A stretch of 64,000 nt of DNA from NCBI GenBank assembly GCA_963731795.1, contig CAVSWU010000003.1:1158216-1222215 (forward strand). The letters run 5' to 3'. Source of the DNA: an uncultured delta proteobacterium. GTDB taxonomy: Bacteria > Myxococcota > Myxococcia > Myxococcales > Myxococcaceae. Each line of letters starts with the position of its first letter. Position 1 is the first letter of the stretch. The translations under genes were made by a program, and so were the position numbers. Positions 3,347 to 45,296 of this stretch are shown one piece after another. A model generated the notes under the pieces. That model searched no databases, had not been told where the DNA came from, and was given only the letters and a program-made list of their open reading frames with translations.

Positions 3347-3370
3347 CGGCTCCCGCCGGAGCGGGAGCCG
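3347..3370 (-). terminator. GC-rich hairpin (10-bp stem, 4-nt loop) followed on minus strand by TTTCTCTT
   Basis: cggctcccgc-cgga-gcgggagccg perfect inverted repeat; T-rich tract on minus strand. Confidence 0.35.
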
Positions 3371-4241: not shown

Positions 4242-4264
4242 GGCTGGCTCGGTTGCTCCCCTCA

Positions 4265-4787: not shown

Positions 4788-4796
4788 GCGCCCTCT

Positions 4797-5237: not shown

Positions 5238-5345
5238 GGCAGCCAGTATAGCGGGCCCTTCATTCGCTGCAGCAGGTCTGTGCGCGTTGACAGCAAGGGA
5301 GAGCACTTGTACTGCGTCGGCGTCCAGGCCAAGGAGCGAACAGCG

Positions 5346-5549: not shown

Positions 5550-5558
5550 GAGAACACA

Positions 5559-6341: not shown

Positions 6342-6949
6342 TGCCCGCCGCCCCTCGGCTGATCGTCATCACCGACTGGCGGCTTCCTCGGGCTCGGCTG
6401 CTCTCGGCGCTCGAGCGCGCGCTGGAGGCAGGGCCCGAGGTCGCGGTCCAGCACCGCCACCCGGAGGCCTCCGCGCGCACCTTCCTCGAAGAGGCGCGGT
6501 GGCTCGCGGGGTTGTGCCACGCGCGAGGCAATCCGCTCTTCGTCAACGGGCGGCTGGATGTGGCGCTCCTGGTCGGCGCGAACCTGCACCTTCCCGCCCA
6601 AGGTCCCCCGGTCGAAGACGTCCGCCCTCACCTCCCCGCCGGGCGACAGATCAGCGTCGCGGTCCATGACGAGCAGGAGGCCCGAGGCGCCCGAGGCGCC
6701 GACCTGGCGCTGGTGAGCCCCGTGTACTCCCCGGGCTCGAAGCCGGGAGATACCCGTCCCCCGTTGGGCCCCGCGGGCTTCCAGGCGTTGGCGGCAGTCC
6801 TGAGCTGCCCGGCCCTGGCGCTGGGGGGCATGTCCCCGGAGAGAGCCCCCCTGCTTCCGGGCGCATATGGCTTCGCGGTCATCTCCGCTGTCCTGGAGGC
6901 GGAGGATCCAGCCGCCGTGGCCCGCGCCCTGCTGCGCGCGTCCTCCTGA
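6341..6949 (+). CDS. thiE: thiamine-phosphate synthase ThiE
   Basis: 202 aa; TMP-TENI family features; start overlaps thiG stop. Confidence 0.8.
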   Translation: MPAAPRLIVITDWRLPRARLLSALERALEAGPEVAVQHRHPEASARTFLEEARWLAGLCHARGNPLFVNGRLDVALLVGANLHLPAQGPPVEDVRPHLPAGRQISVAVHDEQEARGARGADLALVSPVYSPGSKPGDTRPPLGPAGFQALAAVLSCPALALGGMSPERAPLLPGAYGFAVISAVLEAEDPAAVARALLRASS

Positions 6950-6996
6950 GCGGGCGACCTGGGCCCTGCCCTCTCCTCTCTCCTGCCAGAAGTGAG

Positions 6997-14640: not shown

Positions 14641-15863
14641 CCGACGAGGCTCGCCTCCGATGCGCAGACCGCTGGGCGGCCACCGGCGCGCGACACGTGC
14701 GGGCGCTTGCCCAGCACCGGGTGGCTCACGCCCAGCACGCCGAAGCAGTCGTCGAGCTGGCACGCCGGTGAGCGTCGTCGAGTAGTCCCCCAGCATGCCG
14801 ATGCTGAAGTTCTCCCACAGCACCTTGCGCTTGAGGGTGAACGGATCCCCGCCGATCCGGTTGGGCAGGTCCTCCGTGGTCACCGCCGAGCGGAACCCGT
14901 GGGCCGCCAGCACGCGGATGACCTCGTCCGAGTACCAGCCGTTGCAGTAGGCGAAGTCCACGCACCGGGCTTGCTCCAGCTCGCGCTCGATGGCGCGCTT
15001 GGACTCGACGGATCTCGCGCTCCACCACCTCGGGCGGCTCCAGCGTCAGCACGGTGTGGCCCAGCGTGTGCGCGCCGAACTCGAAGCCGTCCCGAGCCAT
15101 GCGGCGCACCTCGTCCCAGTCCATGATGTCGCCCTGCTCGGGCATGAGGTCCGCGGCCGCCGCCCAGCTGCTGCTCCAGCGCGTCGATGACCTCCGCGAG
15201 CGACGCGGCCGGGTGCTCGCCGATGAAGTCGTCCAGCGCGCGCCGAGGCCGTCTTCTGCCCGGAGAGGATGGGCTCGAGCAGCTCAGTCGCCGGCGCCGG
15301 CAGCGCGCGCGAAGTAGGGCCGGAACCGCCGCTCCTTCGCATGCCGCACCAGGTGGAAGAGCCGATCGTGGTTGAAGCGCCGGTCCGTGCCGATGAAGGC
15401 CGTGGGCAGGTAGATGATGGCGGGCACGCCCATCCGCTTCAGGACGGGGTAGGCGTACCGGTACACGTCCCGGTAGCCGTCATCGAAGGTGACGACGCAC
15501 AGATCCTGCTTCGCCGCCCTGCGCGCCCGCCATCACGTCCACCGCGTCGCCGATGGAGGCGAACTCGTAGCCCGCCGCGGCGGCCTCCTCCAGGTGCCGC
15601 CGGAACGTCTCCTGGGAGATGAGCAGCCCGGGAATGGAGCGCTGCAGCTCGCCTGTGAAGTCCTCCACCACGCGGTGGTAGCTGACGATGAGGATCCGCC
15701 GCCCACCGGACTGGCCTCGGCGGTACGCCGCCAGCGCCTTGCGCAGCCCGCTGTAGTGCAGCAGTCCCGCCGCCGCCACCTTCACCGCCCGTCCGCACCA
15801 ACCGACCCGCCCCCATGACCTTCCCCATGCGCAGAGAAACTCTCGCCGGGTCGATAAATGCAC
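14623..15863 (-). pseudogene. polysaccharide deacetylase (NodB-homology, CE4), at least 3 frame disruptions
   Basis: Fragments LIVSYHRV… (15480..15863), YRYAYPVLKRMGVPAIIYLPT (15284..15466), …FEFGAHTLGHTVL… (14726..15145), C-term MDFAYCNGWYSDEV… (14623..14961) each in a different frame. Confidence 0.6.
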
Positions 15864-16121
15864 GGGCGGTGCCAGCCCGGGCCAGCGACTACCGCACAGT
15901 GGGGACGTTCCCGAGGCAGAGCCTGTGCCACCCCTGAAACAAACGGGCCCCTCCGTAGAAAAACTTTCCCGATCCGGGTCCCGTCATGCAGGAAACGCCG
16001 CAGCGTGCCTGGGAAGGCGTGTCGCCCTGCTGCCCAGACCGCCGCCAGGCAGGGGAGCGTCCCTGTCAAGCCCGCTTTCACTGGAGAAAGGCGCGATTTC
16101 CAGTTACGAACGCACCCCTCG

Positions 16122-16784
16122 ATGGAAGCCCCCGCCACCGCGCCTCCCGCGATCGCCCTGCACGACGTGAGCAAGCGCTACGGGCGTCACTGGGCCCTGG
16201 CGCGCCTCACCTACTCGCTGCCTCCAGGGCGCTCGCTGCTCCTCACGGGCCACAACGGCTCCGGGAAGACGACGCTGCTGCGGCTGGTGGCCACCGCGCT
16301 GTCCCCCACCGCCGGCCGAGTGGAAGTCCTCGGGCGCAACACCGTCACCGACCGTGACGCCGTGCGTCAGGACGTGGCCCTCCTGTCCCACGCCAGCTTC
16401 CTCTATGAGGATCTCACGGCCCACCAGAACCTCACGGTGCTGGCGCGGCTGCTGGGCCTGCCCTCTGCGGCGGAGACCGCCAGCGAGCTGCTGACCCGGG
16501 TGGGCCTCACGCGGCGCACCGACAGCCCCGTGCGCCAGTTCAGCGCCGGCATGCGCAAGCGCCTGGCCATCGCGCGGCTGCTGATGAAGAAGCCCGCCCT
16601 GGCGCTGCTCGACGAGCCCTTCGGCGAGCTGGATCCGGCCGGCATCGAGGCCATGGAGATCATCATCCGCGAGCTGAAGACCCGGGGCGTCACGGTGGTC
16701 CTCGCCACCCACCTCGTCGAGCAGGGTCTGTCTCTGTGCGAGGAGCGCCTTCACCTCCAGGAAGGCCGAGCGGTGCCCGCATGA
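16122..16784 (+). CDS. ccmA: heme exporter ATP-binding protein CcmA
   Basis: MEAPATAPPAIALHDVSKRYGRHWAL…GHNGSGKTTLLR; ATG at 16122 inside longer ORF; stop overlaps ccmB start (ATGA). Confidence 0.8.
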   Translation: MEAPATAPPAIALHDVSKRYGRHWALARLTYSLPPGRSLLLTGHNGSGKTTLLRLVATALSPTAGRVEVLGRNTVTDRDAVRQDVALLSHASFLYEDLTAHQNLTVLARLLGLPSAAETASELLTRVGLTRRTDSPVRQFSAGMRKRLAIARLLMKKPALALLDEPFGELDPAGIEAMEIIIRELKTRGVTVVLATHLVEQGLSLCEERLHLQEGRAVPA

Positions 16785-17477
16785 CTCGCCCCCGTCCCAT
16801 TGGCCTGTTGCGCTCTACGCTCGTCCTGCTGGGCAAGGATCTGCTCATCGAGTGGCGCACGCGCGCCCGCCTCAACGCGCTGATCTTCTTCGCGCTCTCC
16901 ACGCTGCTGCTGTTCTCGTTCGCGCTGGGGCCGGACACCAAGCTGCTCGAGCGCAACGCGGGCGGCTACCTGTGGCTGGCCATCCTCTTCGCCAGCACCC
17001 TGTCCCTGGGCGAGTCCTTCCGCGTGGAGCACGAGAACGCCTGCCTGGACGGCCTGCGGCTGGCCCCGGCGGACGCGCGCGCCATCTTCCTGTCCAAGGC
17101 GGTGGGCAACACGCTGCTGCTGGTGGTGCTCGGCGGCCTGCTCATCCCGGTCATGGTGGCGCTCTACGGGGTGAAGGTGATGCTCGGGCGTGGGAGAGCT
17201 GGCGACCACGCTGGTGCTCGGGTGCATGGCGCTTGCCGCCCCAGGGACCGTGTATGCGGCCATCGCCAGCAACGCCCGCGCGCGGGACGTGCTGCTGCCT
17301 CTGCTATTGTTCCCGCTGATCGTTCCCGCCCTGCTGGCCGCGGCCAAGGCGATGATGCTCGTGCTTCAGGGTGACCCGATGAATCAGCTCGGCTCATGGT
17401 TCGGTCTGCTTGGCGGATTCAACCTGATCTATTGGGGCCTGGGGTTCGTGCTGTTCCCGCGGGTGATCGAGGACTAA
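16781..17477 (+). CDS. ccmB: heme exporter permease CcmB; frameshift near 17195
   Basis: N-part in ORF 16736..17374, C-part ([24 protein letters not shown]…[12 protein letters not shown]) in ORF 17190..17477. Confidence 0.7.
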
Positions 17478-17478
17478 C

Positions 17479-18254
17479 ATGAGCGCGCTGTCTCTGTTCA
17501 CCATCTGGCTGCCCCTCATCGTCCTGGTGCTACTGCCCACCGTGGGCCGTAAGTATGCGCACGTGACGCTGCCGGTGTACGCGCTGCTCCTGGTGGGCAT
17601 CGGCCACTACTGGGGCCTGGCCGTGGCGCCTCCGGATCGCGAGATGGGCGACGTGCAGCGCATCATGTACGTGCACGTGCCCGGCGGTGTGGATCGCGCT
17701 GATCGCGCTCACGCTCAACTTCGCGCTGCTCGGTGACATACCTCTTCAAGCCGAGCTGGAAGACGGACTCGCTGGCGGAGGCCTCCGCCGAGGTGGGGCT
17801 GCTGTTCGGCACCGTGGGCGTGATGCTGGGCTCCATCTGGGGCCGGCCCACCTGGGGCGTGTACTGGACGTGGGATCCGCGGCTCACCACGGCGGCCATC
17901 ATGCTGGTGGCCTACACGGGCTACATGGCGCTGCGCCGCTTCGTGGAGGATCCCGAGAAGCGCGCGGTGTGGAGCTCCGTGGTGGGCATCATCGCCGCGG
18001 TGGATCTGCCCATCATCTGGTTCTCGGTGAAGTGGTGGCGCAGCCTGCACCAGGAGCAGTCCTCGCCCAGCACCATGGACCCGGCCTTCTATCTGCCGCT
18101 GCGCCTGAGCGCCTACGGCCTGCTGGCCTTCGTGATCTACTTCCTCATGCGGCGCTACCGGATCGCCCTGGCCGAGCGCAACGCCGAGGTGGCCCTGCCC
18201 GAGGCGCTGCCCACCGACAGCGCTCCGGCCAACCGGTCCGCGGGGGTGGCGTGA
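17479..18254 (+). CDS. ccmC: heme exporter protein CcmC; two frame disruptions (~17690, ~17745)
   Basis: …[10 protein letters not shown] / [17 protein letters not shown] / …[28 protein letters not shown]… spread over three frames. Confidence 0.7.
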
Positions 18255-18442
18255 TGAGCTCGATGATGAGTCTGATGGTGCTGGCCCAGGCGGCCGCGGA
18301 CCCGGGTGTCCGCCGGGGGATCCAAGGCGGCTGGGGCTATGTGTGGACCAGCTACGGAATTACCTGGGGCGCGCTCGCGCTCTACTCGCTGTCGCTGTGG
18401 TTGCGGCGGCCCAAGAACTCGCCTGTTGGCCCGAAGGAGTGA
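18254..18442 (+). CDS. ccmD: heme exporter protein CcmD
   Basis: 62 aa [12 protein letters not shown]…WGYVWTSYGITWGALALY… single TM; TGATG overlap with ccmC. Confidence 0.6.
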   Translation: MSSMMSLMVLAQAAADPGVRRGIQGGWGYVWTSYGITWGALALYSLSLWLRRPKNSPVGPKE

Positions 18443-18445
18443 TCC

Positions 18446-18933
18446 ATGACGCCTGTCGTACGTAACCGCCTCATCGCCGTGGCAGCCCTCCTGGTGGCCG
18501 GTGCGGGCCTGGCCTTCGTGGCCTTCGGCAACATCGGCAACAACCTGGTCTACTACTGGAGCCCGGCGGAGATGATCAGCCAGGGCGAGAAGGCCTATGG
18601 CCCCACCATCCGCCTGGGCGGCGTGGTGAAGCCCGGCTCCATCCAGTGGAACGCCGAGCACACCAGCCTGAACTTCCAGGTCGCCACCGATCACAAGCCG
18701 GACGCGGTGGCCGTGACGGTGCACTCCACCGAGGTGCCGCCGGCCGATGTTCCGTGAGGGCATCGGCGTGGTGGTGGAGGGCACCTTCGACAAGTCCCAG
18801 GTGTTCAGCTCCAACCGGCTGATGGTGAACCACTCCAACGAGTACCGCGCGCCCAAGCCGGGCGAGAAGCCGCGCGAGTGGAAGGAGAGCCTCACCGACA
18901 GCTCCGCCACGCGCGACGACGAGGCCTCAGTGA
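18446..18933 (+). CDS. ccmE: heme chaperone CcmE; frameshift ~18750 and a second near the 3' end
   Basis: N-term TM + …VTVHSTEVP then MFREGIGVVVEGTF…LMVNHSNEYRAPKP (heme-binding His/Tyr region); no in-frame stop before ccmF, but GTGA overlap motif at 18930-18933. Confidence 0.65.
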
Positions 18934-20956
18934 ACGCGACGATTGGATATGGGCTCGTGCTCGGCGGGCTGGTGTGCGCCGCGTTCGGGGCCGTGATTGG
19001 CTTGACGAGCGGCCTGCGCCAGAGCGAGGCGGGCTCTCAGTGGGTGCGGCGCGCGGTGTGGGGCTTCTTCCTCTGCATGGCGGGCTCCAACCTGACCATG
19101 GTGTACGCGCTGGTCACCCACGACTTCAGCCTCGCGTACGTGGCCCAGGTGGGCAGCCGCGCCACGCCGCTGCTCTTCACAGATCGTGTCCCTGTGGAGC
19201 GCGCTGGAGGGGTCCATCCTCTTCTGGGGCCTCATCATGGGCACCTACCTGCTGGCCTTCTCGCTGGTGCACCGCAACGAGCACCGGCGCTACATGTCGC
19301 TGGCGCTGGGCACCATGCTGGGCGTGGGCGTCTTCTTCGCCTTCCTGATCGCCGGCCCGGCCAACCCCTGGCACGTGCTGGCGCAGGTGCCGCCGGACGG
19401 CCCGGGGCCCAACCCGCTGCTGCAGAACCACATCCTCATGGTCATCCACCCGCCCATGCTCTACCTGGGCTACGTGGGCATGACGGTGCCCTTCGGCATC
19501 GCGGTGGCGGGCCTGCTGCGCGGGGAGCTTGGCGACGCGTGGATGGCGCCGCTGCGGCGCTGGATCGCTCATCCCGTGGACGTTCCTCTCGGTGGGCATC
19601 ATCCTCGGCGCGTGGTGGGCGTACGCGGTGCTGGGCTGGGGCGGCTACTGGGCGTGGGATCCGGTGGAGAACGCCTCGTTCCTGCCGTGGCTGACGGCCA
19701 CCGCCTTCATGCACTCCACCCTGGTGCAGGAGCGCAAGCAGATGCTCAGGCTGTGGACCATGAGCCTGGCGCTGGCCAGCTTCGTGCTGACGATCCTCGG
19801 CACGTTCATGACGCGCTCGGGCATCTTCAACTCGGTGCACTCCTTCACCCAGTCGGACATCGGGCCCACGTTCCTGGTGTTCATCGCCTTCCTGCTGGTG
19901 TTCTCCATCGTGCTGCTGGCCACGCGCGGGCACCTGCTGGTGGCCAAGGGCCAGATCAACTCGTTCATCTCGCGTGAGACGAGCATCCTGGTGAACAACC
20001 TGGTGTTCGTGGCCATCACCTTCACGGTGCTGCTGGGCACGGTGTACCCGCTCGTCTCCGAGGCGGTGCGCGACGTGCGCGTCAGCGTGGGCGAGCCGTA
20101 CTTCAACAAGATGGCCGTGCCGGGCGGCATCGCCGTGCTCTTCCTCATGGGCGTGGGGCCGATGCTGCCGTGGGGCACGCCGAACAAGGACGCGCTGCGG
20201 CGGCAGTTCCTCTTCCCCGCCGCCGTGGGCCTGGTGGTGGCGGCGATCTGCTACGCGGTGGGGCTGCGCGGCTTCTACCCGCTGCTCACCTTCGGGATCG
20301 CCGGCTTCGTCACCATCGTCACCCTGCGCGAGCTGGCGGCGCCGATCCGCGTGCGCATGAGCGAGCGCAAGGAGAGCCTCGGCACGGCGCTCGTCCAGAG
20401 CGTGTCCAAGGCCCGCCGGCGCTTCGGCGGCTACGTGGTGCACCTGGGCATCATCTTCATCATCGTGGCGGTGGCGGCCTCGCACGCGTACGTGAAGCAC
20501 ACCTCCGGCACGATGAAGGTTGGCGAGGCGATCAAGCTGGACGGCTACACGCTCAAGTACCTGGGCCCGGCCGAGGGCAAGGAGCCCCACCGCACCTACG
20601 TGGCGGCGCGCATGGAGGTGACGACGCCTGGCGGCAAGGTGCAGGAGTTCCAGCCGCGGCTGAACTACTACGAGCGCAGCACGGACCCCGTCGGCACGCC
20701 CGCGGTGCGCGAGTCGCCGCAGGAAGATCTCTACATGTCGCTGATGGCCTTCTCCGAGCGGGGGACCACGGCGAGCCTCAACGTGTGGGTTTTCCCGCTG
20801 GTGGGGTGGATCTGGTACAGCATCCCCATCCTGGTGCTGGGCGCGCTGATCTCGCTGTGGCCGACGCGGCGGCGCGTGGCGGTGGGCGCGAGCGCTCCGG
20901 CCACGAGCGGTGCCCCGCCGGTGGCGGACAGTGACATGAACCGGGGTGCGGCATGA
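18930..20956 (+). CDS. ccmF: cytochrome c-type biogenesis protein CcmF; frame disruptions ~19190 and ~19565
   Basis: Three frame segments with CcmF signatures (…SLWSALEGSILFWGLIMG…, …GGYWAWDPVENASFLPWL…), ~670 aa total. Confidence 0.75.
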
Positions 20957-21609
20957 CGGGGGAAAACCTGGGCGCGCTCGCCTTCGTTGCAGTGCTGCTC
21001 CTCTCCCTGCTGACGGGCTTCTGGCGGAATCCGCGCGTGAAGCGGTGGAGAACCATTCTGAGAGTCCCACTGCTCGCGGTTGCCGTCTCCGCGGCGCTGC
21101 TCATCGTGATGCTGAAGGGCTTCGGGCGGGATCCGCACGAGGTGCCCTTCATGTTGGCCGGCAAGCCAGCCCCGCCCTTCACCTTGCGCGCGCTGAACAG
21201 CGGCAAGCCGGTGAGCCTGGAGCAGTTCAAGGGCCGCCCGGTGGTCATCAACTTCTGGGCTTCATGGTGCGGCCCCTGCCGGCAGGAGCACCCGGTGCTC
21301 GACTGGGGCGCGCGGGAGCTCGGCAATCAGGCGGTGTTCCTGGGCATCATCTTCGAGGACACCGAGGACAACGCGCGGGAGGTCCTCCAGGAGGAGGGCG
21401 CCAGCTTCCCGCAGCTGGTGGATCCGCGCTCGCGCATCTCGGTGGACTACGGCGTGTCGGGCGTGCCGGAGACGTACTTCATCGACGCCAACGGCATCAT
21501 CATGGGCAAGCACGTGGGCCCCATCGATCCGCAGACGCTGTCCACCCGCATCAAGGAGCTGAATGCCCGGACGGCCTCCACCGCGACAGGCTCGGCCCAG
21601 AACCCTTGA
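20953..21609 (+). CDS. ccmG: thiol:disulfide interchange protein CcmG/DsbE
   Basis: TM anchor, thioredoxin fold with WASWCGPCRQE active site; ATGA overlap with ccmF. Confidence 0.85.
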   Translation: MTGENLGALAFVAVLLLSLLTGFWRNPRVKRWRTILRVPLLAVAVSAALLIVMLKGFGRDPHEVPFMLAGKPAPPFTLRALNSGKPVSLEQFKGRPVVINFWASWCGPCRQEHPVLDWGARELGNQAVFLGIIFEDTEDNAREVLQEEGASFPQLVDPRSRISVDYGVSGVPETYFIDANGIIMGKHVGPIDPQTLSTRIKELNARTASTATGSAQNP

Positions 21610-21660
21610 GCCGTCAGGATCGCGCTCCCGGAGCTCGCACTGAGCGGAGGTAAGTGAGTC

Positions 21661-22831
21661 ATGCACCAGTGCACTGAGTGTGGCACGGTCGCCGCGGAGC
21701 CCCGCCTGAAGTACTGCGAGGAGTGCGGGGCGCGGATGCCCGAGTACAAGCCGCCTCCCCTGCCCCCCGAGGGCGGCCCGGGTGGAGCGGCGCTCGCGGA
21801 CTCCCGCCGCGCCACGCCCGCCTATACCGGCCCGAAGTGGCTGGCGCATGTCCCCGCGCACTCGCCCACCTCGCTGGGCGTCATCCTGCACGTGCTGGCC
21901 CTGTGGCTCTCCATCCTCCCCTTCCTCGCGGGCGTGGGGCCGTTCTGGTCCTTCGTGATGACGGTGGGCGGGGTGCTCATGATCGCCCGGGAGTACCGCA
22001 CCTCGAACCTGCCGAACCCGCTGGTGGACTGGATCCCCGAGTCGCTCCTGCCGAGCTTCCTGCCCGTCGTGTACTCGGCGCTGGCCGTGGCGATCGTGCT
22101 GCCGATGGTGGAGTTCAGCATCCAGCCGCTGCTGTGGGCGGGCGGCACGGTGCTGGTGGTGCGCGACCAGTGGGGCAAGGCCTTCACGGGCCCGGGTGGC
22201 TACGCGGAGATCTTCGATCCTCGCGCGGTGGTGCGCGGCCAGCGGCTGCTGGCGTTCGCGGGCATCGTCGTGTGCGTGCTGGCGCTCTTCTTCACGTGGA
22301 CGCTCGAGGGTGAGGTCACCGCCAGCGGGTACGCCTCGGCTGCCTCGGGGCAGCTGCGCTCCATCAACGTGCCGCAGCCGGGCGGCGACTCGATCTACGG
22401 CGGCGCGGGGGGGCTCCGGGTGTCAGGGTTCGAGCTGCCCGTGGGCTCCACCGTGGAGATCGGGCTGCTGGCGATCCTGATGCTGCTGATGCTGAAGCCC
22501 GAGGTGGAGCGCCCCGTGTGGCTGCGCTTCGTGCCCGCCGGGATCACGGTGATCTCCCTGGCCTGGGTGCTGGTGAACATGCGCATGAAGGTGGGGCCGA
22601 TCCTGTTCCTGGCGGGGCTCATCCCCGTGGGGCTCGTCTCGGTCCTCCAGGCGCTCGGCCGCGATGAGCATGCCCCCGGAGGACTACGCCCACGAGCCGC
22701 CTCCCGACGAGTCCTTCGCCCAGGACGCCGACCTGCCTCCGGAGGAGGACTTCCCGACCGAGAACGACCCGTTGCCGCCCGACGAGGCAGAGCATCCGCC
22801 TTCCGAGGATGATGAGGACATGCGCGGCTGA
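21661..22831 (+). CDS. zinc-ribbon polytopic membrane protein with acidic C-terminal tail (hypothetical); frameshift ~22665
   Basis: N-term CTECG…CEECG zinc ribbon, 6+ hydrophobic helices; last ~50 aa read in +1 frame give DYAHEPPPDESFAQDADLPPEEDFPTENDPLPPDEAEHPPSEDDEDMRG with much better GC3 than the annotated frame. Confidence 0.6.
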
Positions 22832-22957: not shown

Positions 22958-23479
22958 GTGCCCCGAATGACTTCTGCCCTCCTCTCTCTTGCTCTCGCCG
23001 CCGGTCTCGTGACCGGCCAGTTCGCTCCTCAGCAGGCCGGGAGCGATCCCCTCACCGATCCGGCCCTCGAGGCCCGCGTGCAGAAGCTCGGCAAGGAGCT
23101 GCGCTGCGCCGTGTGCCAGGGCGTCTCCATCGCCGACAGCCCGGCCTCCATGGCCCGTGCCCAGCTCGACAAGGTGCGCGAGCTCGTCGCCGCGGGGAAG
23201 TCCGATGAGGAGATCACCGACTACTTCGTGGCTCGCTACGGCGAGTGGGTGCTGCTGGAGCCCCCGAAGCATGACTGGAACCTGCTCGTGTGGCTGGGGC
23301 CTGTCGCCCTGATCGTGGGCGGAGCCTTCGTCATCTCGCGGCAGATCAAGCGGGGACCTGAGAGCGCCAACACGACTCCGGCCGCCAGCGCCACCCCGGC
23401 GGCCGCCGCACCCTCGGCGCCCGCGACCGAGGCCGAGGATCCCTACCTGAAGGCCGTTCGCCAGGAGCTGGAGCGATGA
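22958..23479 (+). CDS. ccmH: cytochrome c-type biogenesis protein CcmH/CycL
   Basis: Signal peptide, LRCAVCQG (LRCxxC) motif, C-terminal TM. Confidence 0.85.
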   Translation: MPRMTSALLSLALAAGLVTGQFAPQQAGSDPLTDPALEARVQKLGKELRCAVCQGVSIADSPASMARAQLDKVRELVAAGKSDEEITDYFVARYGEWVLLEPPKHDWNLLVWLGPVALIVGGAFVISRQIKRGPESANTTPAASATPAAAAPSAPATEAEDPYLKAVRQELER

Positions 23480-24468
23480 CGCAGCAGACCAACTGGTTGC
23501 CGGGGATCATTGCCCTCGCGATCGCCCTCGTCTGCGGGATCGGCTACCTGCTGCTCCAGCGGCGCACGGGCGCGGCGCCCTCCACCCCCGAGCCCCAGCG
23601 CGATGGCGTCCTGGACGATCTCGATCGGCGCGCGCAGTCACTCATCGAGCAGCTCAAGGAGCTGGTGGCGGACAAGCACAGCCTCTCCCCCGAGCAGTTC
23701 GAGGCGGAGAAGTCCCGGCTGGAGCGCGAGGCCGCGGCGGCGCTGCGGGCCAAGGACGAGTACCTGCAGCAGCGCAAGCCAGGGACGGCCAGCGCGCCGG
23801 GCTCGGCGGCCGCTCCCGTGGGACAGACGGCTCCCGCTCCGACGGGCTTCGCGGCTCGCAACCCGCAGCTGGTGGGCGCGATGTGGGGCGCGGGCGTGAT
23901 GCTGTTCTTCGGCGTCCTCGGCTACCTGCTCATGTCGTCGCTGCAGCCGCGCACCGAGGGCATGGAGGCCTCGGGCAAGGTTCCCCCGAACTCGTCTCCC
24001 ATGGGCCAGCAGCAGATGGGCCAGCAGCAGGAGGCTGTCCAGGAGGACGCGGAGTTCGCCCAGGCCAAGGAGCGGCTGCAAGCCAACCCGAATGATCTCG
24101 AGGCCGCCAGCTTCGTGGCGCATGAGATGATCCGGAACCGGGATCTCGAGGACGCGGAGAAGATCACGAACAAGGCGCTCGCGGTCGACCCGTTCCACAT
24201 CGAGTCTCGCGTGCACCTCGGAGTGCTGCACGCCCTCCGGGGAGATGTGCCGAGCGCCGAGCACGAGCTGCTGGAGCTGGCGGACACCTACCCGGGCGCG
24301 CAGGAGGCGCTGCTCTTCCTGGGCTTCATCAACCTGCAGTCCGGCCGGCGTGACAAGGCGCTGAACCTGTTCGAGCGCTTCACCGTGGAGGTGCCGCGCG
24401 ACCAGTACCCTCCCGGGATCGAAGCCGCCATTGCCCAGCTCCGCCAGGAGATGGGCCGGAAGCCCTGA
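23476..24468 (+). CDS. ccmI: cytochrome c biogenesis factor CcmI/CycH (TPR)
   Basis: N-terminal TM, second TM, C-terminal TPR repeats; ATGA overlap with ccmH. Confidence 0.75.
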   Translation: MTQQTNWLPGIIALAIALVCGIGYLLLQRRTGAAPSTPEPQRDGVLDDLDRRAQSLIEQLKELVADKHSLSPEQFEAEKSRLEREAAAALRAKDEYLQQRKPGTASAPGSAAAPVGQTAPAPTGFAARNPQLVGAMWGAGVMLFFGVLGYLLMSSLQPRTEGMEASGKVPPNSSPMGQQQMGQQQEAVQEDAEFAQAKERLQANPNDLEAASFVAHEMIRNRDLEDAEKITNKALAVDPFHIESRVHLGVLHALRGDVPSAEHELLELADTYPGAQEALLFLGFINLQSGRRDKALNLFERFTVEVPRDQYPPGIEAAIAQLRQEMGRKP

Positions 24469-24483: not shown

Positions 24484-25683
24484 TCACACGGAGGCCCGGC
24501 GCCTCCGTAACCGACGGATGAGCTCGACCGTGGTGTCAGGCAGGACGCGCTTGAGCACCTCGCGTGCGCCGCGCGCCAGCTCTTCGTGGCGAGTGAACCA
24601 GTGTCCCGCCCCCTGGGTGGAGTGGACGCGCACCGCCACCGTGCGCCGCTGCTTCGTCGTCCAGTCGGACTTGTAGGTCTCGGTGCCTCGGAGGAAGTCG
24701 TACTCAGTGAGGCCGGACTCGATGGCGTCCTTGAAGGTCTCGCCCACGAGCACCAGGCCCACGCTCCGGCTGCGCCACTGCGGATCGTAGCCGGACTGGA
24801 AGTAGATGAACGTGTCCCGGTGGAGAATCCCGTACACCGAGGCGACGGCCTGGCCTCCCACCTTCATCGTGTAGAGCCGCAGTCGGCCGCGCTCGGCCAG
24901 GAACTGCGTGGCATCGCGGTGGAAGGCCTCCACGCCCTTGCCCTTGATGCCCTGAGAGCCACCGTCCTCGGCCCAGCGGGCCGCGTGCAGCCGGAAGAAG
25001 TCCGTCATGGGCCCGGCGAGCGCCCCGGGGGCCTCCGTGCGCTCGATCCGATAGCCCTCCTGCTTCTCCAGCCACTTGCGGCGGCGCAGGTAGTTGTCCC
25101 GCCGGCCCGTGCGCTTGAGAAAGGCGTCGAAGGACTCTCCGGGCGAGAAGGTCTCGTACGGGCACACGCAGCGCTCCGTCACGCGGAACTCCATGTCCGG
25201 GAACATCTCGCGCAGCACCTCCACGGTGAGCGAGTCCTCGCGCAGATCCGTGAGCTCCAGCACGTCCCAGCCGCCGTGCATCTCGCGGAGCCCGTTCGCG
25301 AAGGCGCGCGTCACCGCCTCCTCCGAGCCCCGCCGCGCCACCACGTCCAGGTAGTCGCTGCCGACGTGCGTCTCTCCCAGGAAGGAGAGCCGTCCCACCT
25401 GGCAGCCCAAAACGTTGCGCAGCTCGAAGCCGAGCGGCATCAGGCCCACCAGGGTGCCGCTCCTATCTCTCGCCGTGAGGACCAGCGGCCGCCGGTCCGG
25501 AGCGATGCGGCGGCACCAAGGGTAGAGCCACTCCCAGGCGTTGAAGGGGCCGGCGTTGCTCGCGTCGAGCAGCGCGTCCCACTCGGAGCGCATGCGCGCC
25601 AGCGCGGAGAGCTCGTGGACGATCTCTACCTGGAGCCACTGCGAAGGCAGCGGCTCGGGCGTCACATCGGATTCACGGATCAT
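24484..25683 (-). CDS. GNAT-fold acyltransferase, CelD/BioF2/FemAB-like (ExoI-like)
   Basis: 399 aa; Acetyltransf_6-type C-terminal region; paralogous to 26877..27997. Confidence 0.7.
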   Translation of the reverse strand: MIRESDVTPEPLPSQWLQVEIVHELSALARMRSEWDALLDASNAGPFNAWEWLYPWCRRIAPDRRPLVLTARDRSGTLVGLMPLGFELRNVLGCQVGRLSFLGETHVGSDYLDVVARRGSEEAVTRAFANGLREMHGGWDVLELTDLREDSLTVEVLREMFPDMEFRVTERCVCPYETFSPGESFDAFLKRTGRRDNYLRRRKWLEKQEGYRIERTEAPGALAGPMTDFFRLHAARWAEDGGSQGIKGKGVEAFHRDATQFLAERGRLRLYTMKVGGQAVASVYGILHRDTFIYFQSGYDPQWRSRSVGLVLVGETFKDAIESGLTEYDFLRGTETYKSDWTTKQRRTVAVRVHSTQGAGHWFTRHEELARGAREVLKRVLPDTTVELIRRLRRRRASV

Positions 25684-25710: not shown

Positions 25711-26889
25711 TCAGCTCGCGCGCTTGCGTGAGCGGCGATCCATCTTCACGGCCTCGCGGACCGCGGCGGCCACCTTCGCCATCACCTCGGGGCTGAGATC
25801 CTGGTGGCAGGGGATCTCCACGATGGAGCGCCGCAGCTCCGCCACCTCGGGGAACTCCGCCGGATCGCATGCCGGGTGGAAGCGCCTCCAGAAGTCGATG
25901 GCGTCGATGCCGTGCTCGTGCAGCTTCGCCATCACCTCCGCCTTGTCCTGCACCACCAGCGGATAGAAGAGCGGGCACACGCCCGGCGGGAGCTGGTTGA
26001 ACAGCGGCGTTGACACATCGCGCAGCCGCCCAAGCAGGAAGAAGTAGTTCCGCCGCCGCTTCTCGACGATGCCCTCCAGATCCTGCGCCAGGGCGATGCG
26101 CTTCGTCAGCGGGCTCATGCCCAGGTCCACGTGCTCCCGGTTGAAGTGCTGCGTGCCGGTGGCCACGCGCTCGATGTTGGCGGCCTTCACCGTGCCATGG
26201 CCCAGCTCGCGGATGAGGCGGCGCAGCCCTCGGCCCATGACTCCGCCTCGGAGCTCCAGGTTCTGCAGCAGCGCGGAGATCGTGTGGCTGATCGTGGAGG
26301 CCTTCGGCGGCGCGGGCGGCTCCGGCAGGCTGTACTGCCGGGGGCCGTTGATGGCCAGCGCGCCCCCGTTGGGCACCGGCAGCGTCTTGTAGAGACAGAA
26401 GATGCCCACGTCACCCGTGGTCCCCAGCGGCACCGTACCGTCCGCGGACAGCAGCGACAGCGCGCAGTCCTCGATGAGCGGCAGCCCGTGGCGGTCCGCG
26501 ATCTGGCGCATCTCCGCCGCCGGGCCCGGGAAGCCCGCGTAGTGGATGAGGTAGAGGGCCTTGGTCTTCGGGCCGATCTTCTTCTCGACGTCCTCCAGGT
26601 CGACGTCCCAGCGCGAGCCCACCCGGTAGAAGCGCGGCGTGGCGCCCGCATCCACCACGGCCTCCACCTCCACGCCGTGGTGATAGGCCGGCATGAGCAC
26701 CTCGCCCTTGTCCAGCCCCAGCATCTTCACCGTGAGCCAGACGGCATTCCGAGCGAAGTAGAAGTAGCGCACGTTCGGCGCGCAGAACGGCGGGAAGGCG
26801 GCCGGCTGGGGCCGACGCCACAGCATGCTCGGCCAGAGCGTGGGCAGGGAGGGAACGAACAGCTTCTGGGTCGGGCTCACTTCTTCCAT
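25711..26889 (-). CDS. DegT/DnrJ/EryC1/StrS-family PLP-dependent sugar aminotransferase (ExoH-like)
   Basis: 392 aa from MEEVSPTQ…; …ALYLIHYAGFPGPAAEMRQIADRHGLPLIEDCA…IFCLYKTLP…; start overlaps upstream stop by 13 nt. Confidence 0.75.
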   Translation of the reverse strand: MEEVSPTQKLFVPSLPTLWPSMLWRRPQPAAFPPFCAPNVRYFYFARNAVWLTVKMLGLDKGEVLMPAYHHGVEVEAVVDAGATPRFYRVGSRWDVDLEDVEKKIGPKTKALYLIHYAGFPGPAAEMRQIADRHGLPLIEDCALSLLSADGTVPLGTTGDVGIFCLYKTLPVPNGGALAINGPRQYSLPEPPAPPKASTISHTISALLQNLELRGGVMGRGLRRLIRELGHGTVKAANIERVATGTQHFNREHVDLGMSPLTKRIALAQDLEGIVEKRRRNYFFLLGRLRDVSTPLFNQLPPGVCPLFYPLVVQDKAEVMAKLHEHGIDAIDFWRRFHPACDPAEFPEVAELRRSIVEIPCHQDLSPEVMAKVAAAVREAVKMDRRSRKRAS

Positions 26890-27997
26890 CGCGCCACCAC
26901 CTGTCTTGCCGTGGGGACCCACCGGAACTTCGCCGCGCCCAGCGCGCGCGCGAAGGCGGAGTCGTTGAAGAGGAAGAGCCAGTGGTGGCGCCGGACCTTG
27001 TCCGTCCAGTCGCGCTTCCACACCATGTCCGGCCCCAGGAAGTCGAACTCGCGCAGGCCGCGCGAGATGCAGTCCCCCAGCACCTCTTCCATCAGGAGCT
27101 GGCCCGGGCTGCACTCCTTGAGGCTCTCGTCGTAGCCGGGCTTGAGCAGGAAGTAGCGCTCGCCGTAGGTGAGGCCGTACTGGAAGGCCACCGGCGCGCC
27201 CATCCAGGCGCAGGTAGTAGAGCGACAGCCGCCCCGAGTACGCCGCCTCCCGCGCCAGCTCCGTGTAGAAGCCGCGCGTGCTCGCGTCCTGCGCCATCGC
27301 CGTGCCGCGCTCGCCCTTCCAGCCGCTCTGCTCGAGCGCGAAGCCCTCCTCCAGCTTGCCCTCCAGGTCCAGGCCGCCGTCCACCCGCTCGAACTCGACC
27401 TTGCCCTTCTCTTCCAGCTTCTTGCGCCGCCGCCGGCAGTTGGCCTTGAACTTGGACTGCAGCGTGGCCTGGTAGGCCTCGAGCGTGGCGGGCAGCGGCA
27501 CGTAGGGCGACTGGAGCGAGTCCCAGACTCCCGTGGACAGCCCCGCGCTCCTGGCCTCCTCGAGCAGGCTCCAGCCCGCGCCGCCCTCCGGCACGTCCGT
27601 CAGCCGCAGCACATCCCAGTCCCGGCTCATGCGCAGCCAGGCGAGGAACATCGCCGCGGCCGCCTCCGGCTCGCGGGCGATCAGATCGAACCGGCACGAG
27701 TGCGGATTGGCCGTGGCCGAGAGCTGCCGCACGGGGAGGCCGTACATCGTCGTGCGATCGGCCATCAGCGGCAGCGCCGCCGCCAAGCCGCCCCTCGGCG
27801 TCCCGCAGGGTGAGCACCCGCAGCCGCGCCGAGGGCGCGAAGTTGTCGATCCAGATGCGCAGGAACTCGTGGCGATAGAAGAGCTCGTTGGAGGTGGCCT
27901 CCACGAGCGCATTCCACTCGGGCTCGAGCGCCATGAACGCGGCCCGGTCCGTGACCTCCTGGACACTCGGCGCGGGCGTGATCTTTCTGGCTTCCAT
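26877..27997 (-). CDS. GNAT-fold CelD/FemAB-like acyltransferase (ExoG-like); two frame disruptions (~27760, ~27200)
   Basis: N-term MEARKITPAPSVQEVTDRAAFMALEPEWNALV… (ORF 27092..28048), middle in ORF 25711..28026 frame, C-term …FDFLGPDMVWKRDWTDK… in ORF 26877..27203. Confidence 0.65.
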
Positions 27998-28001
27998 GTG
28001 T

Positions 28002-29147
28002 TCAGGACTCCCGAAGGCGCGGACACCTCGGGTGCCGCGCGCGTGCAAGGTGGGAACGGCCGGGGCTGGCTACAAGCCAGCTGCGAGCCATCTTCAGCAG
28101 GCAGCGAGCAACCTTCCGGCTGTCGTGTCGGATCTTGGACCCCTCCCTGAGGAGATCCGCCTCCACGGGGACGACGCCAGCGGCGATCAGCTCGCGGCGG
28201 TTCACCGGGATGACAGAGGCGCCCTTGTGCGAATAACGCTGGATGGCCTCCGGCGGAGGAGGCTTTCCGTTGATGAGCACCGCATCCAGCACCGGGCCCG
28301 CGTGCTCGATGACTGCTCGGACGTGGTCCAGGCAGTCCATGCCGTCCGTCTCCCCAGGCTGGGTCATGAGGTTGGACACCATCACCTTGAGCACCCGCGT
28401 CTCGTTCAGCGCCTGGGCCACGCCATCCACCAGCAGGTTGGGGATGACGCTCGAGTACAGCGAGCCCGGCCCGATGACGATGAGGTCCGCGGTGTGGATG
28501 GCCTCCAGCACCCCCTCGGAGGGCGGCGGAGAGCGCGGGCTCAGCGACACCCGGCGCACGTGGCCCTGGGCGCGGACGATGTTGCGCTCGCCCACCACCT
28601 CGGTGGCGTCATCCATCTTCGCCACGAGCTGCACCGGGGCCAGCGTGCACGGCAGCACCCGCCCCCGCGCCCCCAGCATCTCCTCGGAGACGCGCACCGC
28701 CTCCAGGAAGTCCCCCTTGAGCTCCGCCAGCGCGGCGATCAGCAGGTTGCCCACCGCATGCCCGGCCAGCCCCTTGGCACCGCCGAAGCGGTACTGGAAC
28801 ACCTGCGCGAGCGTGCTGTGGCCGCCCGCGAGCGCCACCAGGCAGTTGCGGATGTCCCCCGGTGGCAGCACCCCGTGCGAGCGGCGCAGCCGGCCCGAGC
28901 TGCCTCCGTCATCGCTCATGGTGACAACGGCGGTGATGTCCACGCCGGGATCCCCCGCCTTGGGTTCAGCCCGCCGAGCCAGTCCTCGGAGCACCACCGG
29001 CAGCCCTGTGCCACCGCCCATCGCGACGATGCGAGTAGGGCGATCCACGTGCGGCTTCAGCAGCTCGTTCCGCCCCTGCTGCCGGGCGGTCTTCGCATCC
29101 TTGCCCCGCGTCTCCTGGAGAGACGAATCCAGATCCACGACCGACAT
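28002..29147 (-). CDS. YvcK/CofD-family gluconeogenesis-factor-like protein (ExoF-like)
   Basis: …RIVAMGGGTGLPVVLRGL…ITAVVTMSDDGGSSGRLRR…DIRNCLVALAG… UPF0052 signature. Confidence 0.8.
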   Translation of the reverse strand: MSVVDLDSSLQETRGKDAKTARQQGRNELLKPHVDRPTRIVAMGGGTGLPVVLRGLARRAEPKAGDPGVDITAVVTMSDDGGSSGRLRRSHGVLPPGDIRNCLVALAGGHSTLAQVFQYRFGGAKGLAGHAVGNLLIAALAELKGDFLEAVRVSEEMLGARGRVLPCTLAPVQLVAKMDDATEVVGERNIVRAQGHVRRVSLSPRSPPPSEGVLEAIHTADLIVIGPGSLYSSVIPNLLVDGVAQALNETRVLKVMVSNLMTQPGETDGMDCLDHVRAVIEHAGPVLDAVLINGKPPPPEAIQRYSHKGASVIPVNRRELIAAGVVPVEADLLREGSKIRHDSRKVARCLLKMARSWLVASPGRSHLARARHPRCPRLRES

Positions 29148-45285: not shown

Positions 45286-45296
45286 CCCTCTGACGG

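What the first reader, a model, noticed from the sequence alone, without database searches (positions are those of the whole stretch)
21661..22831. Uncharacterized zinc-ribbon polytopic membrane protein embedded between ccmG and ccmH
The ccmABCDEFG genes are translationally coupled, and ccmH-ccmI follow. Inserted between them is a roughly 390-aa protein with an N-terminal double-CxxC zinc ribbon, 6+ TM helices and a highly acidic Pro/Glu/Asp C-terminal tail (only visible after correcting a +1 frame slip near 22665). No canonical System-I component has this architecture. Its operon position suggests a lineage-specific accessory factor in cytochrome c maturation, for example apocytochrome handling or metal/heme delivery.
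Basis: partly seen in the sequence, partly recalled or inferred. Interest (0 to 1): 0.6.

Follow-up and report, generated by a model that had tools for sequence, protein, structure and literature searches.

The report
Unknown membrane protein ending ccm operon
A real, conserved gene for a zinc-ribbon membrane protein of unknown family sits directly after the cytochrome c maturation gene ccmG in Myxococcus-type bacteria, so it may be a lineage-specific helper of that pathway, but gene order is the only evidence.

Summary
Window 21661-22831 (+) encodes a 389-aa protein. It has a Cys4 zinc ribbon, a Pro/Gly linker, eight TM helices and a 56-aa acidic Pro/Glu/Asp tail. The tail appears only after removing one inserted base at about 22670. 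That base is one of at least eight 1-nt insertions this assembly carries in the ccm region compared with two relatives, so I read it as a sequencing error.

The protein matches no Pfam, NCBIfam or PDB entry, by sequence or by fold. It belongs to an uncharacterised family. Within the Myxococcaceae (Hyalangium, Archangium, Cystobacter, Vitiosangium, Pyxidicoccus, Myxococcus) the gene follows ccmG in 27 of 30 genomes, directly in 24. Its position "between ccmG and ccmH" is found only in the Hyalangium-like clade; elsewhere it is the last gene of ccmABCDEFG.

Three results weaken a core Ccm role:
- Distant family members, including a Myxococcus paralogue and Bacillota proteins, are not near ccm genes.
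- The protein evolves about twice as fast as its Ccm neighbours.
- Its conserved polar residues face the cytoplasm, and no conserved periplasmic Cys or His exists.

My best reading is a lineage-specific, non-catalytic accessory membrane protein co-expressed with CcmA-G. Its function is inferred from synteny only. Interest is moderate.

The parts
15858..20956 (+). ccmA, ccmB, ccmC, ccmD, ccmE and ccmF (System I). In this assembly they are broken by 1-nt insertions at about 17185, 17679, 17725, 18746, 18912, 19180 and 19567.
   Evidence: Pfam hits ABC_tran, Cytochrom_C_asm, CcmE and CcmF_C. GC3 frame switches. Indels relative to L001 and L002.
20953..21609 (+). ccmG/DsbE thioredoxin-like protein (WCGPC motif). 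Its start overlaps the ccmF stop (ATGA).
   Evidence: Redoxin and AhpC-TSA, E 4e-22. TIGR00385 dsbE, E 2.5e-33.
21646..21650 (+). GGAGG Shine-Dalgarno sequence 10 nt upstream of the target ATG, inside the 51-nt ccmG-target spacer.
   Evidence: Read directly from the sequence.
21661..22831 (+). Target CDS. After removing the extra base at about 22670 it encodes 389 aa. As deposited, the ORF reads 21661-22812 (383 aa) with a spurious Arg-rich tail.
   Evidence: L001 has a clean 389-aa orthologue.
21661..21741 (+). Residues 1-27: Cys4 zinc ribbon (C4, C7, C19, C22), predicted cytoplasmic.
   Evidence: Motif conserved in homologues. Sub-threshold Pfam zinc-ribbon hits. Beta-bridge pattern in the AF2 model, pLDDT about 78.
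21742..21822 (+). Residues 28-54: Pro/Gly-rich linker. It is variable, about 27 aa here and about 80 aa in Cystobacter and Myxococcus.
   Evidence: Alignment A1. pLDDT about 60.
21823..21867 (+). Residues 55-69: conserved juxtamembrane motif Y-x-G-P-K-W-L-x-H-V-P-x-H-S-P.
   Evidence: Invariant or nearly invariant columns Y55, G57, P58, W60, L61, V64, P65, H67, S68, P69.
21868..22185 (+). Residues 70-175: TM1-TM4. A-R-E-x-R (109-113) and D-Q-W-x-K (169-173) sit at the cytoplasmic helix ends.
   Evidence: Hydropathy. AF2 helices 69-83, 94-114, 134-144, 154-175. Conservation.
22243..22302 (+). Residues 195-214: TM5, with invariant G201 and C205 (codon 22273-22275) and W213.
22303..22434 (+). Residues 215-258: the only long periplasmic loop. 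It has a predicted beta-hairpin (212-216 / 252-255), a low-confidence middle, conserved D243 and Y246, and no Cys or His.
   Evidence: AF2. Alignment.
22435..22653 (+). Residues 259-331: TM6-TM8, with the conserved cytoplasmic loop P-E-V-x-R-P-x-W-x-R-F-x-P (280-292).
22669..22670 (+). Site of the 1-nt insertion (GAGC[A]TGCC) that shifts the frame.
   Evidence: Both L001 and L002 lack this base. Homologues read GRDELPPEDY across it.
22660..22831 (+). Residues 334-389 plus stop: acidic Pro/Glu/Asp tail. It is variable in length and absent in Cystobacter and Vitiosangium.
   Evidence: Composition. Alignment A1. GC3 in the +1 frame.
22958..23479 (+). ccmH (LRCxxC motif). An ATG at 22967 is an alternative start. 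It lies 126-135 nt after the corrected target stop.
   Evidence: PF03918 CcmH, E 3e-36.
23476..24468 (+). CcmI/CycH-like TPR protein. Its start overlaps the ccmH stop.
   Evidence: TPR families and PF23914 TPR_CcmH_CycH, below cut-off.

Best explanation
What is shown. The locus encodes an intact inner-membrane protein of 389 aa once one assembly-error base is removed. Its layout is a cytoplasmic Cys4 zinc ribbon, a flexible linker, a conserved juxtamembrane motif, an eight-helix TM core with one periplasmic beta-hairpin loop, and a disordered acidic cytoplasmic tail. It belongs to an uncharacterised protein family. One clade of that family is fixed as the last cistron of the ccmABCDEFG transcription unit throughout the Myxococcaceae.

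What is inferred. The protein is co-transcribed with CcmA-G. I propose it acts as a lineage-specific, non-catalytic accessory or scaffold subunit. It would associate through its TM core with a Ccm membrane complex. Its conserved cytoplasmic face (HxxxHSP, ARExR, DQWxK and PEVxRPxWxRF motifs, plus the zinc ribbon) would then engage a cytoplasmic-side step, such as heme hand-off to CcmBC or contact with the CcmA ATPase. It would not handle apocytochrome or heme in the periplasm. The structural description carries high confidence (about 0.9). The Ccm-related function carries low to moderate confidence, and that is what the confidence value of 0.4 rates.
For: Real gene:
- GC3 is 0.89-1.0 in frame.
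- There are 64 homologues with E down to 1e-218.
- Relatives carry clean 389-aa ORFs.

Frameshift is an artefact: 1-nt insertions relative to both L001 and L002 occur at 22670 and at seven other sites in ccmB, ccmC and ccmE/F.

Architecture:
- Hydropathy and a positive-inside count of 13 versus 4 Lys/Arg, read from the sequence with the TM boundaries.
- AF2 model with pLDDT 84.8 and pTM 0.74.

Synteny:
- The gene lies immediately downstream of ccmG, same strand, in 24 of 30 species-level genomes; the gaps measured in eight of them are 17-74 nt.
- It lies after ccmG with two inserted ORFs in 3 more genomes.
- When the cluster is split (6 kb in Pyxidicoccus L020; ccmHI absent nearby in Myxococcus, Archangium and Cystobacter), the break falls between the target and ccmH, not between ccmG and the target.

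Conserved residues: invariant and nearly invariant polar residues map to the cytoplasmic helix ends and loops.

The rest of the operon is a canonical System I: CcmE HxxxY, CcmH LRCxxC, CcmG WCGPC.
Against: - The only link to cytochrome c maturation is gene order.
- Six more distant family members, including a Myxococcus paralogue (P0090) and Symbiobacteriaceae-type proteins, have no ccm genes within 6-7 kb. The family is therefore not intrinsically Ccm-related.
- Three Archangium MAG loci (L007, L014, L018) carry the gene without ccm upstream.
- The protein diverges much faster than its neighbours. Identity to Myxococcus is 35%, against 77% for CcmF, 70% for CcmG and 84% for CcmA. NG86 dN/dS is 0.5-0.9, against 0.2-0.5 for CcmG, CcmH and CcmI.
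- No heme- or thiol-type motif is conserved in the periplasmic loops.
- No expression, interaction or phenotype data were found in the literature.
Confidence: 0.4

Rival explanations
1. Hitch-hiker. The gene encodes a general-purpose membrane protein of this uncharacterised family, for example in envelope or membrane homeostasis. It happens to be parked at the 3' end of the ccmA-G operon in the Myxococcaceae ancestor and has been inherited vertically, with no role in cytochrome c maturation.
For: - Distant relatives and a Myxococcus paralogue sit in unrelated, mutually inconsistent contexts: YceI/YajQ, cation-efflux/MerR, PrsW, methyltransferases.
- The gene is uncoupled from ccm in three Archangium MAGs.
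- It has fast, relaxed evolution compared with the Ccm genes.
- It has its own SD and a 51-nt spacer rather than translational coupling.
Against: - Adjacency to ccmG on the same strand with short gaps is kept across at least six genera. This holds even where ccmHI have moved away.
- Insertions split the cluster after the target rather than before it (L020).
Confidence: 0.38
2. LetA/PqiA-like tetraspan transporter. The protein would be a very divergent relative of the zinc-ribbon-plus-tetraspan-TMD transporters and would move a hydrophobic ligand (lipid or heme) across or out of the inner membrane.
For: - The architecture resembles a LetA variant lacking the second zinc ribbon. It has an N-terminal CxxC-x11-CxxC ribbon, then two four-helix TM bundles, with a beta-hairpin in the first periplasmic loop of the second bundle. 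The LetA description is from PMC13017536.
- One local hhalign match links TM7-8 to the last hairpin of PqiA (probability 51%).
- There is a weak internal TM3-4 / TM7-8 repeat signal.
Against: - There is no PF04403 (PqiA) hit for the target or homologues, even at E <= 1.
- A module-level LetA/PqiA profile aligns only the zinc ribbon. The TM domains align with probability below 1%.
- Foldseek against the PDB finds nothing at E <= 0.001.
- No MCE gene lies adjacent.
- The first bundle has no periplasmic beta-sheet.
Confidence: 0.1
3. Reductant conduit for CcmG. The protein would be an analogue of DsbD/CcdA that relays electrons from the cytoplasm (zinc-ribbon CxxC pairs) through the membrane Cys205 to periplasmic CcmG.
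For: - It lies directly after ccmG, whose usual partner DsbD/CcdA is absent from the cluster.
- Cys205 is invariant in mid-TM5 and four cytoplasmic cysteines are present.
Against: - Only one conserved membrane cysteine exists and there is no conserved periplasmic cysteine.
- There is no DsbD/CcdA Pfam hit.
- M. xanthus already has a DsbD-family protein (YP_628569 in the DsbD/ScsB alignment of PMC3322552).
- Family members occur without ccmG.
Confidence: 0.05
4. Pseudogene or non-gene. The frameshifted ORF would be a decaying or spurious reading frame.
For: The deposited sequence needs a frame correction, and dN/dS against the closest relative is high, 0.89.
Against: - The same assembly shows equivalent 1-nt insertions in the core System I genes ccmB, ccmC and ccmF, which share 93% nucleotide identity with L001.
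- Relatives have intact ORFs.
- About 50 invariant or nearly invariant columns hold across genera.
- GC3 is at or above 0.9 in the correct frames on both sides of the slip.
Confidence: 0.03

Closest known systems
Canonical System I cytochrome c maturation operon (ccmABCDEFGHI)
   Same: The flanking genes are a complete, canonical System I: CcmA ABC ATPase, CcmB, CcmC, CcmD, CcmE with HxxxY, CcmF with CcmF_C, CcmG/DsbE with WCGPC, CcmH with LRCxxC, and a TPR CcmI-like protein. The target is on the same strand and 51 nt after ccmG.
   Different: No described System I component has a zinc ribbon plus eight TM helices. The target hits none of the Ccm Pfam or NCBIfam models. It is restricted to one bacterial family, and its wider protein family is not ccm-linked.
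LetA/PqiA (PF04403; E. coli LetAB structure, PMC13017536)
   Same: Both have a cytoplasmic CxxC-Xn-CxxC zinc ribbon followed by four-helix TM bundles arranged twice in one chain. Both have a periplasmic beta element in a claudin-like position. The LetA paper notes that some LetA homologues lack the second ribbon.
   Different: - No TM-domain sequence similarity is detectable with Pfam or with profile-profile tests.
- There is a single ribbon and a 27-80 aa linker.
- The first bundle has no periplasmic sheet.
- There is no MCE partner gene.
DsbD/CcdA thiol-disulfide membrane transporters
   Same: Both are polytopic inner-membrane proteins genetically associated with CcmG-type thioredoxins. The target has a conserved membrane-embedded cysteine.
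   Different: DsbD/CcdA use two conserved TM cysteines in a pseudo-symmetric fold. The target has one (C205) and gives no DsbD Pfam hit.
Generic N-terminal zinc-ribbon membrane proteins ('zinc ribbon domain-containing protein', PF13240 / PF13248 / PF12773)
   Same: The target carries the same short CxxC...CxxC ribbon at the extreme N-terminus, followed by a low-complexity linker and TM helices. This is how NCBI and UniRef name several homologues. Other such ORFs occur in this window, at 61713-63434 (-) and 63565-64002 (+).
   Different: Those Pfam families describe only the roughly 25-aa ribbon. The eight-TM body of the target is not covered by any curated family.

Membership tests
Uncharacterised zinc-ribbon + 8-TM family (the 64 homologues; wider family) | Full-length sequence similarity, including the KWLxHVPxHSP, ARExR, DQWxK, C205 and PEVxRPxWxRF motifs | tested here: met
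   E from 1e-218 to 1e-48 over 75-100% of the length. Invariant columns. A profile search found 83 cluster representatives.
System I Ccm components (CcmA-I) | Match to a Ccm Pfam or NCBIfam model (CcmB, Cytochrom_C_asm, CcmD, CcmE, CcmF_C, Redoxin/DsbE, CcmH, CycH TPR) | tested here: not met
   Zero families for the target at E <= 0.01 in Pfam and NCBIfam, while the neighbours hit their expected models.
System I Ccm components (CcmA-I) | Conserved co-location with ccm genes across taxa | tested here: inconclusive
   Met within the Myxococcaceae (27 of 30 loci after ccmG). Not met for the wider family.
System I Ccm components (CcmA-I) | Requirement for holocytochrome c formation | not testable with these tools
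   Needs a deletion mutant and heme staining. No published data were found.
LetA/PqiA (PF04403) | Sequence match of the TM domain to the PqiA family profile | tested here: not met
   No PF04403 hit at E <= 1 or E <= 0.01. hhalign against a four-module LetA/PqiA profile gives TM-domain probability below 1%. One isolated 36-column match at 51%.
LetA/PqiA (PF04403) | Two modules, each with a zinc ribbon followed by a four-TM tetraspan-like domain bearing a periplasmic beta-sheet | tested here: not met
   There is one ribbon only. The first four-TM bundle has periplasmic turns of 5-7 residues. Only the TM5-TM6 loop has a beta-hairpin.
LetA/PqiA (PF04403) | Adjacent MCE-domain partner gene (LetB/PqiB) | tested here: not met
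   The neighbours are ccmG and ccmH here, and ccmG with unrelated genes in relatives.
DsbD/CcdA | Two conserved cysteines in TM helices and a DsbD-family Pfam match | tested here: not met
   C205 is the only conserved membrane Cys. There is no DsbD hit.
Zinc ribbon (PF13240 / PF13248 / PF12773) | CxxC-Xn-CxxC tetracysteine knuckles that reach the family score | tested here: inconclusive
   The motif is present and conserved. Best Pfam E is 0.001-0.007, and the scores of 16-19 bits fall below the gathering cut-offs of 25-27. Ten of 30 distant relatives hit PF13240, best E 6e-6. Metal binding was not tested.
Claudin / tetraspan superfamily | Four-TM up-down bundle with an extracytoplasmic beta-sheet in loop 1, and structural similarity above generic helical bundles | tested here: inconclusive

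The most novel reading that the evidence does not exclude
The protein would be a previously unrecognised tenth component of System I in Myxococcaceae. It would be a zinc-ribbon, double four-helix-bundle (tetraspan/LetA-like) membrane protein that works on the cytoplasmic side of the Ccm machinery, for example by channelling or gating heme supply to CcmABCD or by organising the CcmABCD and CcmFGH complexes. If so, it would be a new fold class in cytochrome c biogenesis.
Probability: 0.25. Interest if true: 0.65.

Novelty: new variant of a known kind. Interest (0 to 1): 0.4.

Why it matters
System I cytochrome c maturation is usually described as a nine-protein system (CcmA-I), and how heme reaches CcmBC from the cytoplasm is still debated. 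A conserved extra membrane protein fixed behind ccmG in a genetically tractable group (Myxococcus xanthus) gives a cheap, direct test for a lineage-specific accessory factor. It would also give a first functional handle on an unannotated membrane-protein family that also occurs in Bacillota and other phyla. If the deletion has no cytochrome phenotype, the case becomes a useful warning that conserved operon position alone does not imply shared function. Separately, the finding shows that this assembly carries frequent 1-nt insertions, so its gene calls, including the deposited 383-aa protein, need correction.

Tried and rejected
- Curated libraries. Pfam and NCBIfam scans of the target, five homologues and 30 distant relatives returned only sub-threshold or short zinc-ribbon hits.
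- PDB by sequence profile. Only zinc-ribbon noise and one chance MtrE hit at E 0.012.
- afdb50. The Foldseek library was not available.
- LetA/PqiA homology. I fetched E. coli pqiA and letA and ran hhalign three ways. Only the zinc ribbon aligns reproducibly, so I rejected membership.
- Internal 4+4 duplication. hhalign of the N-half against the C-half gave only a weak TM3-4 / TM7-8 match (E 0.006, probability 6%). Not established.
- Programmed frameshift. Rejected, because relatives have uninterrupted ORFs and the same assembly has seven more 1-nt insertions in neighbouring ccm genes.
- Terminator, promoter or RNA structure in the flanking spacers. The consensus scan of 15-25 kb found no promoter-like site and one terminator-like site, inside ccmF. 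The target-ccmH spacer folds no better than shuffles, z = 0.97.
- Genes inserted between ccmG and the target in Archangium (L016). They have no CxxCH motif and no cytochrome link.
- Literature. Searches for a myxobacterial ccm accessory gene found nothing.
Full report
**1. The observation**

The window is 68.7% G+C. An ATG ORF runs 21661-22812 (+) and encodes 383 aa. Third-position GC is 0.9-1.0 in this frame up to about 22600. It then switches to the +1 frame, which ends with TGA at 22829-22831.

In the +1 frame the sequence reads MSMPPEDYAHEPPPDE...SEDDEDMRG. The ORF frame instead gives an Arg-rich tail with low GC3. Close homologues of 389 aa (P0002, P0004) read ...ALGRDELPPEDYGHEPP...EDMQG straight through. 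DNA alignment to two relatives (L001 Hyalangium sp., L002 H. versicolor) shows one extra base in the window at 22670, GAGC[A]TGCC.

The same alignment shows 1-nt insertions, absent from both relatives, at about 17185, 17679, 17725, 18746, 18912, 19180 and 19567. These fall inside ccmB, ccmC and ccmE/ccmF, which are otherwise 93% identical to L001. They explain why these genes appear as several overlapping ORFs. It is very unlikely that the core System I genes are all real pseudogenes at this level of conservation. The frame slip is therefore an assembly error.

The true product is 389 aa. The public record carries the uncorrected 383-aa protein (P0001, on a 4.25-Mb contig).

**2. Anatomy**

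- Residues 1-27 carry C4-x2-C7-x11-C19-x2-C22. The motif is conserved in all homologues whose N-terminus is called. tblastn matches start at residue 1-3 in every locus. Pfam zinc-ribbon families match only below their cut-offs, as is usual for 25-aa domains.
- A Pro/Gly linker follows. It is 27 aa here and up to about 80 aa in Cystobacter and Myxococcus.
- Next comes the conserved motif Y-x-G-P-K-W-L-x-H-V-P-x-H-S-P.
- Hydropathy and an AlphaFold2 model built on 64 sequences (pLDDT 84.8, pTM 0.74) give eight TM helices, at about 69-90, 94-114, 128-147, 154-175, 195-214, 260-278, 286-305 and 311-331.
- There is one long loop (215-258). It contains a beta-hairpin and a low-confidence middle.
- Lys+Arg counts are 13 in the loops predicted cytoplasmic and 4 in those predicted periplasmic (read from the sequence with the boundaries). 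This fits N-in/C-in, with the ribbon and the tail in the cytoplasm.
- The tail (56 aa) has 22 Asp/Glu, 2 Lys/Arg and 13 Pro. It varies in length and is absent in Cystobacter and Vitiosangium, so it is not part of the conserved core.

The invariant or nearly invariant polar residues are H67, S68, R110, E111, R113, D169, Q170, K173, R188, E281, R284 and R289. All lie at cytoplasmic helix ends or in cytoplasmic loops. C205 is invariant in the middle of TM5. The periplasmic loop has no Cys or His.

**3. Context in the window**

- Pfam and NCBIfam confirm ccmA, ccmC, ccmE, ccmF and ccmG/DsbE upstream. They also confirm ccmH (PF03918, E 3e-36) and a TPR CcmI-like gene downstream.
- The motifs are canonical: CcmG WCGPC and CcmH LRCxxC in this window, and CcmE HxxxY in the orthologues of L001 and L029.
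- ccmF/ccmG and ccmH/ccmI overlap by ATGA.
- The target starts 51 nt after the ccmG stop, behind its own GGAGG at 21646-21650. It ends 126-135 nt before ccmH.
- In the 15-25 kb region the consensus scans found no promoter-like site and only one terminator-like site, inside ccmF. The downstream spacer folds no better than shuffled sequence.

**4. Relatives and synteny**

There are 64 homologues (E 1e-218 to 1e-48). Those that carry an organism name are all from Hyalangium, Stigmatella, Vitiosangium, Cystobacter, Pyxidicoccus, Myxococcus or related MAGs. They are annotated only as hypothetical or 'zinc ribbon domain-containing protein'.

A genome scan returned 30 species-level loci. tblastn with the window's Ccm proteins and ORF maps give this picture:

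| Arrangement | Loci |
|---|---|
| Target directly after ccmG, same strand (measured gaps 17-74 nt) | 24 |
| Target after ccmG with two unrelated inserted ORFs | 3 (Archangium L015, L016, L019) |
| Target without ccm upstream | 3 (Archangium MAGs L007, L014, L018) |
| ccmH-ccmI directly downstream | 7 (Hyalangium-like L001-L006, L008) |
| ccmHI 6 kb further downstream | 1 (Pyxidicoccus L020) |
| Unrelated genes downstream (argG and an MBL-fold gene, by my reading of the ORF N-termini; not scanned) | Archangium, Cystobacter, Vitiosangium, Myxococcus |

The conserved unit is therefore ccmABCDEFG followed by the target. The position 'between ccmG and ccmH' is a clade-specific juxtaposition, or the ancestral state later split after the target.

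**5. The wider family**

A profile search of 1.84 billion representatives found 83 clusters. Several are full-length distant relatives with the same ribbon-plus-TM layout and a Gly/Tyr-rich periplasmic loop. Some have a duplicated body and no ribbon (P0080, P0099, P0101).

Named sources include Bacillota (Symbiobacteriaceae), Longimicrobiaceae and a Myxococcus paralogue, P0090. Six such genes were inspected in their contigs, and none is near ccm genes. Their neighbourhoods are unrelated and inconsistent. Only zinc-ribbon Pfam families hit these proteins. The family as a whole is thus not a cytochrome c maturation family; only one clade has become operon-linked.

**6. Rate of evolution**

- Against Myxococcus the target keeps 34-36% identity, compared with 76-78% for CcmF, 67-70% for CcmG and 82-84% for CcmA.
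- NG86 dN/dS against L001, L002 and L004 is 0.89, 0.51 and 0.67 for the target. It is 0.22-0.54 for CcmG, CcmH and CcmI.
- The excess is spread over the TM core as well as the loops.
- dS is compressed by the extreme GC3 bias, so only the relative difference is meaningful.

The protein is under purifying selection at about 50 positions but is otherwise loosely constrained. This fits an accessory protein better than a core catalytic subunit.

**7. Comparison with known folds and families**

- Foldseek against the PDB gave no match at E <= 0.001.
- A PDB sequence-profile search found only zinc-ribbon noise.

LetA is described as two modules, each a cytoplasmic zinc ribbon followed by a tetraspan-like TMD, and some homologues lack the second ribbon (PMC13017536). 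Because of this I tested that relationship directly:

- There is no PF04403 hit.
- hhalign of the family profile against E. coli PqiA aligns only the ribbon.
- Against PqiA+LetA there is one 36-column TM7-8 match at 51% probability.
- That match disappears with a module-level profile, where TM-domain probability is below 1%.

Membership is therefore not supported. The resemblance is architectural only.

The DsbD/CcdA idea, prompted by the position next to ccmG and by the invariant C205, fails on the two-cysteine criterion. M. xanthus also already has a DsbD-family protein (PMC3322552).

**8. Most likely mechanism**

Shown:
- The gene is real and encodes a zinc-ribbon plus eight-TM inner-membrane protein.
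- It is vertically conserved as the terminal gene behind ccmG in the Myxococcaceae.
- It has no curated family.

Inferred:
- It is co-transcribed with ccmA-G.
- It acts as a lineage-specific, non-catalytic accessory or scaffold subunit of the Ccm membrane machinery.
- It works through its conserved cytoplasmic face rather than in the periplasm.

I put this at about 0.4. The 'hitch-hiker with unrelated function' reading is nearly as likely, at about 0.38. The LetA-like transporter (0.1), the reductant conduit (0.05) and the pseudogene (0.03) are minor alternatives.

**9. Novelty and verdict**

No paper describing this gene was found. The protein is not new to databases, since homologues are deposited as hypothetical proteins. 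However, the family is uncharacterised, and its fixed association with ccmG has not been described in the searched literature.

I classify it as a new variant of a known kind: a System I operon with an extra conserved cistron. Interest is 0.4. The case is testable and mildly surprising for the field, but it rests on synteny only and several observations point to a peripheral role.

Noticed in passing
window 17185, 17679, 17725, 18746, 18912, 19180, 19567, 22670: The window carries at least eight single-base insertions relative to two related genomes within 6.6 kb. They frameshift ccmB, ccmC, ccmE/ccmF and the target. Most are not in homopolymers. Large gaps in the GC3-filtered ORF map elsewhere in the window (for example 1649-5559 and 42007-45297) suggest the same problem is widespread in this assembly.
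   Followed up: partly
L027 (BNCN01000010.1, titled Comamonas sp. KCTC 72670): A record labelled Comamonas carries a Myxococcus-type ccmABCDEFG-plus-target locus. CcmF is 78% identical to the window and the layout matches the Myxococcus loci. The assembly is probably mislabelled or contaminated.
   Followed up: no
window 61713-63434 (-) and 63565-64002 (+): Two further ORFs begin with the same kind of N-terminal CxxC...CxxC zinc ribbon (LRCPTCG...YCPSCG and MTFCPHCD...LCQACG). This ribbon is a recurrent N-terminal module in this genome.
   Followed up: no
L015, L016, L019 (Archangium), about 5700-8000 in locus coordinates: Two ORFs (about 369 and 223 aa in L016; a putative lipoprotein and a protein of unknown function, with no CxxCH motif) are inserted between ccmG and the target in three Archangium genomes. 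In three other Archangium MAGs (L007, L014, L018) the target is detached from ccm altogether.
   Followed up: partly
P0080, P0099, P0101: Some distant family members lack the zinc ribbon and contain two tandem copies of the TM body (about 410-476 aa). This suggests the TM body can be duplicated as a unit.
   Followed up: no
P0090 / L031 7001-8083 (Myxococcus sp. RHSTA-1-4): A divergent paralogue of the family exists in Myxococcus, away from ccm genes, between a gene with no Pfam hit and a DUF6986 gene, with an M1 peptidase gene beyond. The ccm-linked clade and this clade therefore coexist within the Myxococcaceae.
   Followed up: partly
window 24484-25683 (-) and the ORF 25711-28026 (-): Downstream of ccmI lies a conserved Acetyltransf_6 (PF13480) gene. 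A second, roughly 30%-identical paralogue lies about 1.3 kb further on in the related loci L001-L006 and L008. The 771-aa ORF at 25711-28026 looks like two genes fused by a frameshift.
   Followed up: no
window 20953-21040 (start of ccmG): The annotated ccmG start region differs from L001 and L002 by several small indels (4, 2 and 2 nt). The window's CcmG has a roughly 30-aa longer, doubly hydrophobic N-terminus than the 186-aa orthologue in L001. The true start is probably further downstream.
   Followed up: no
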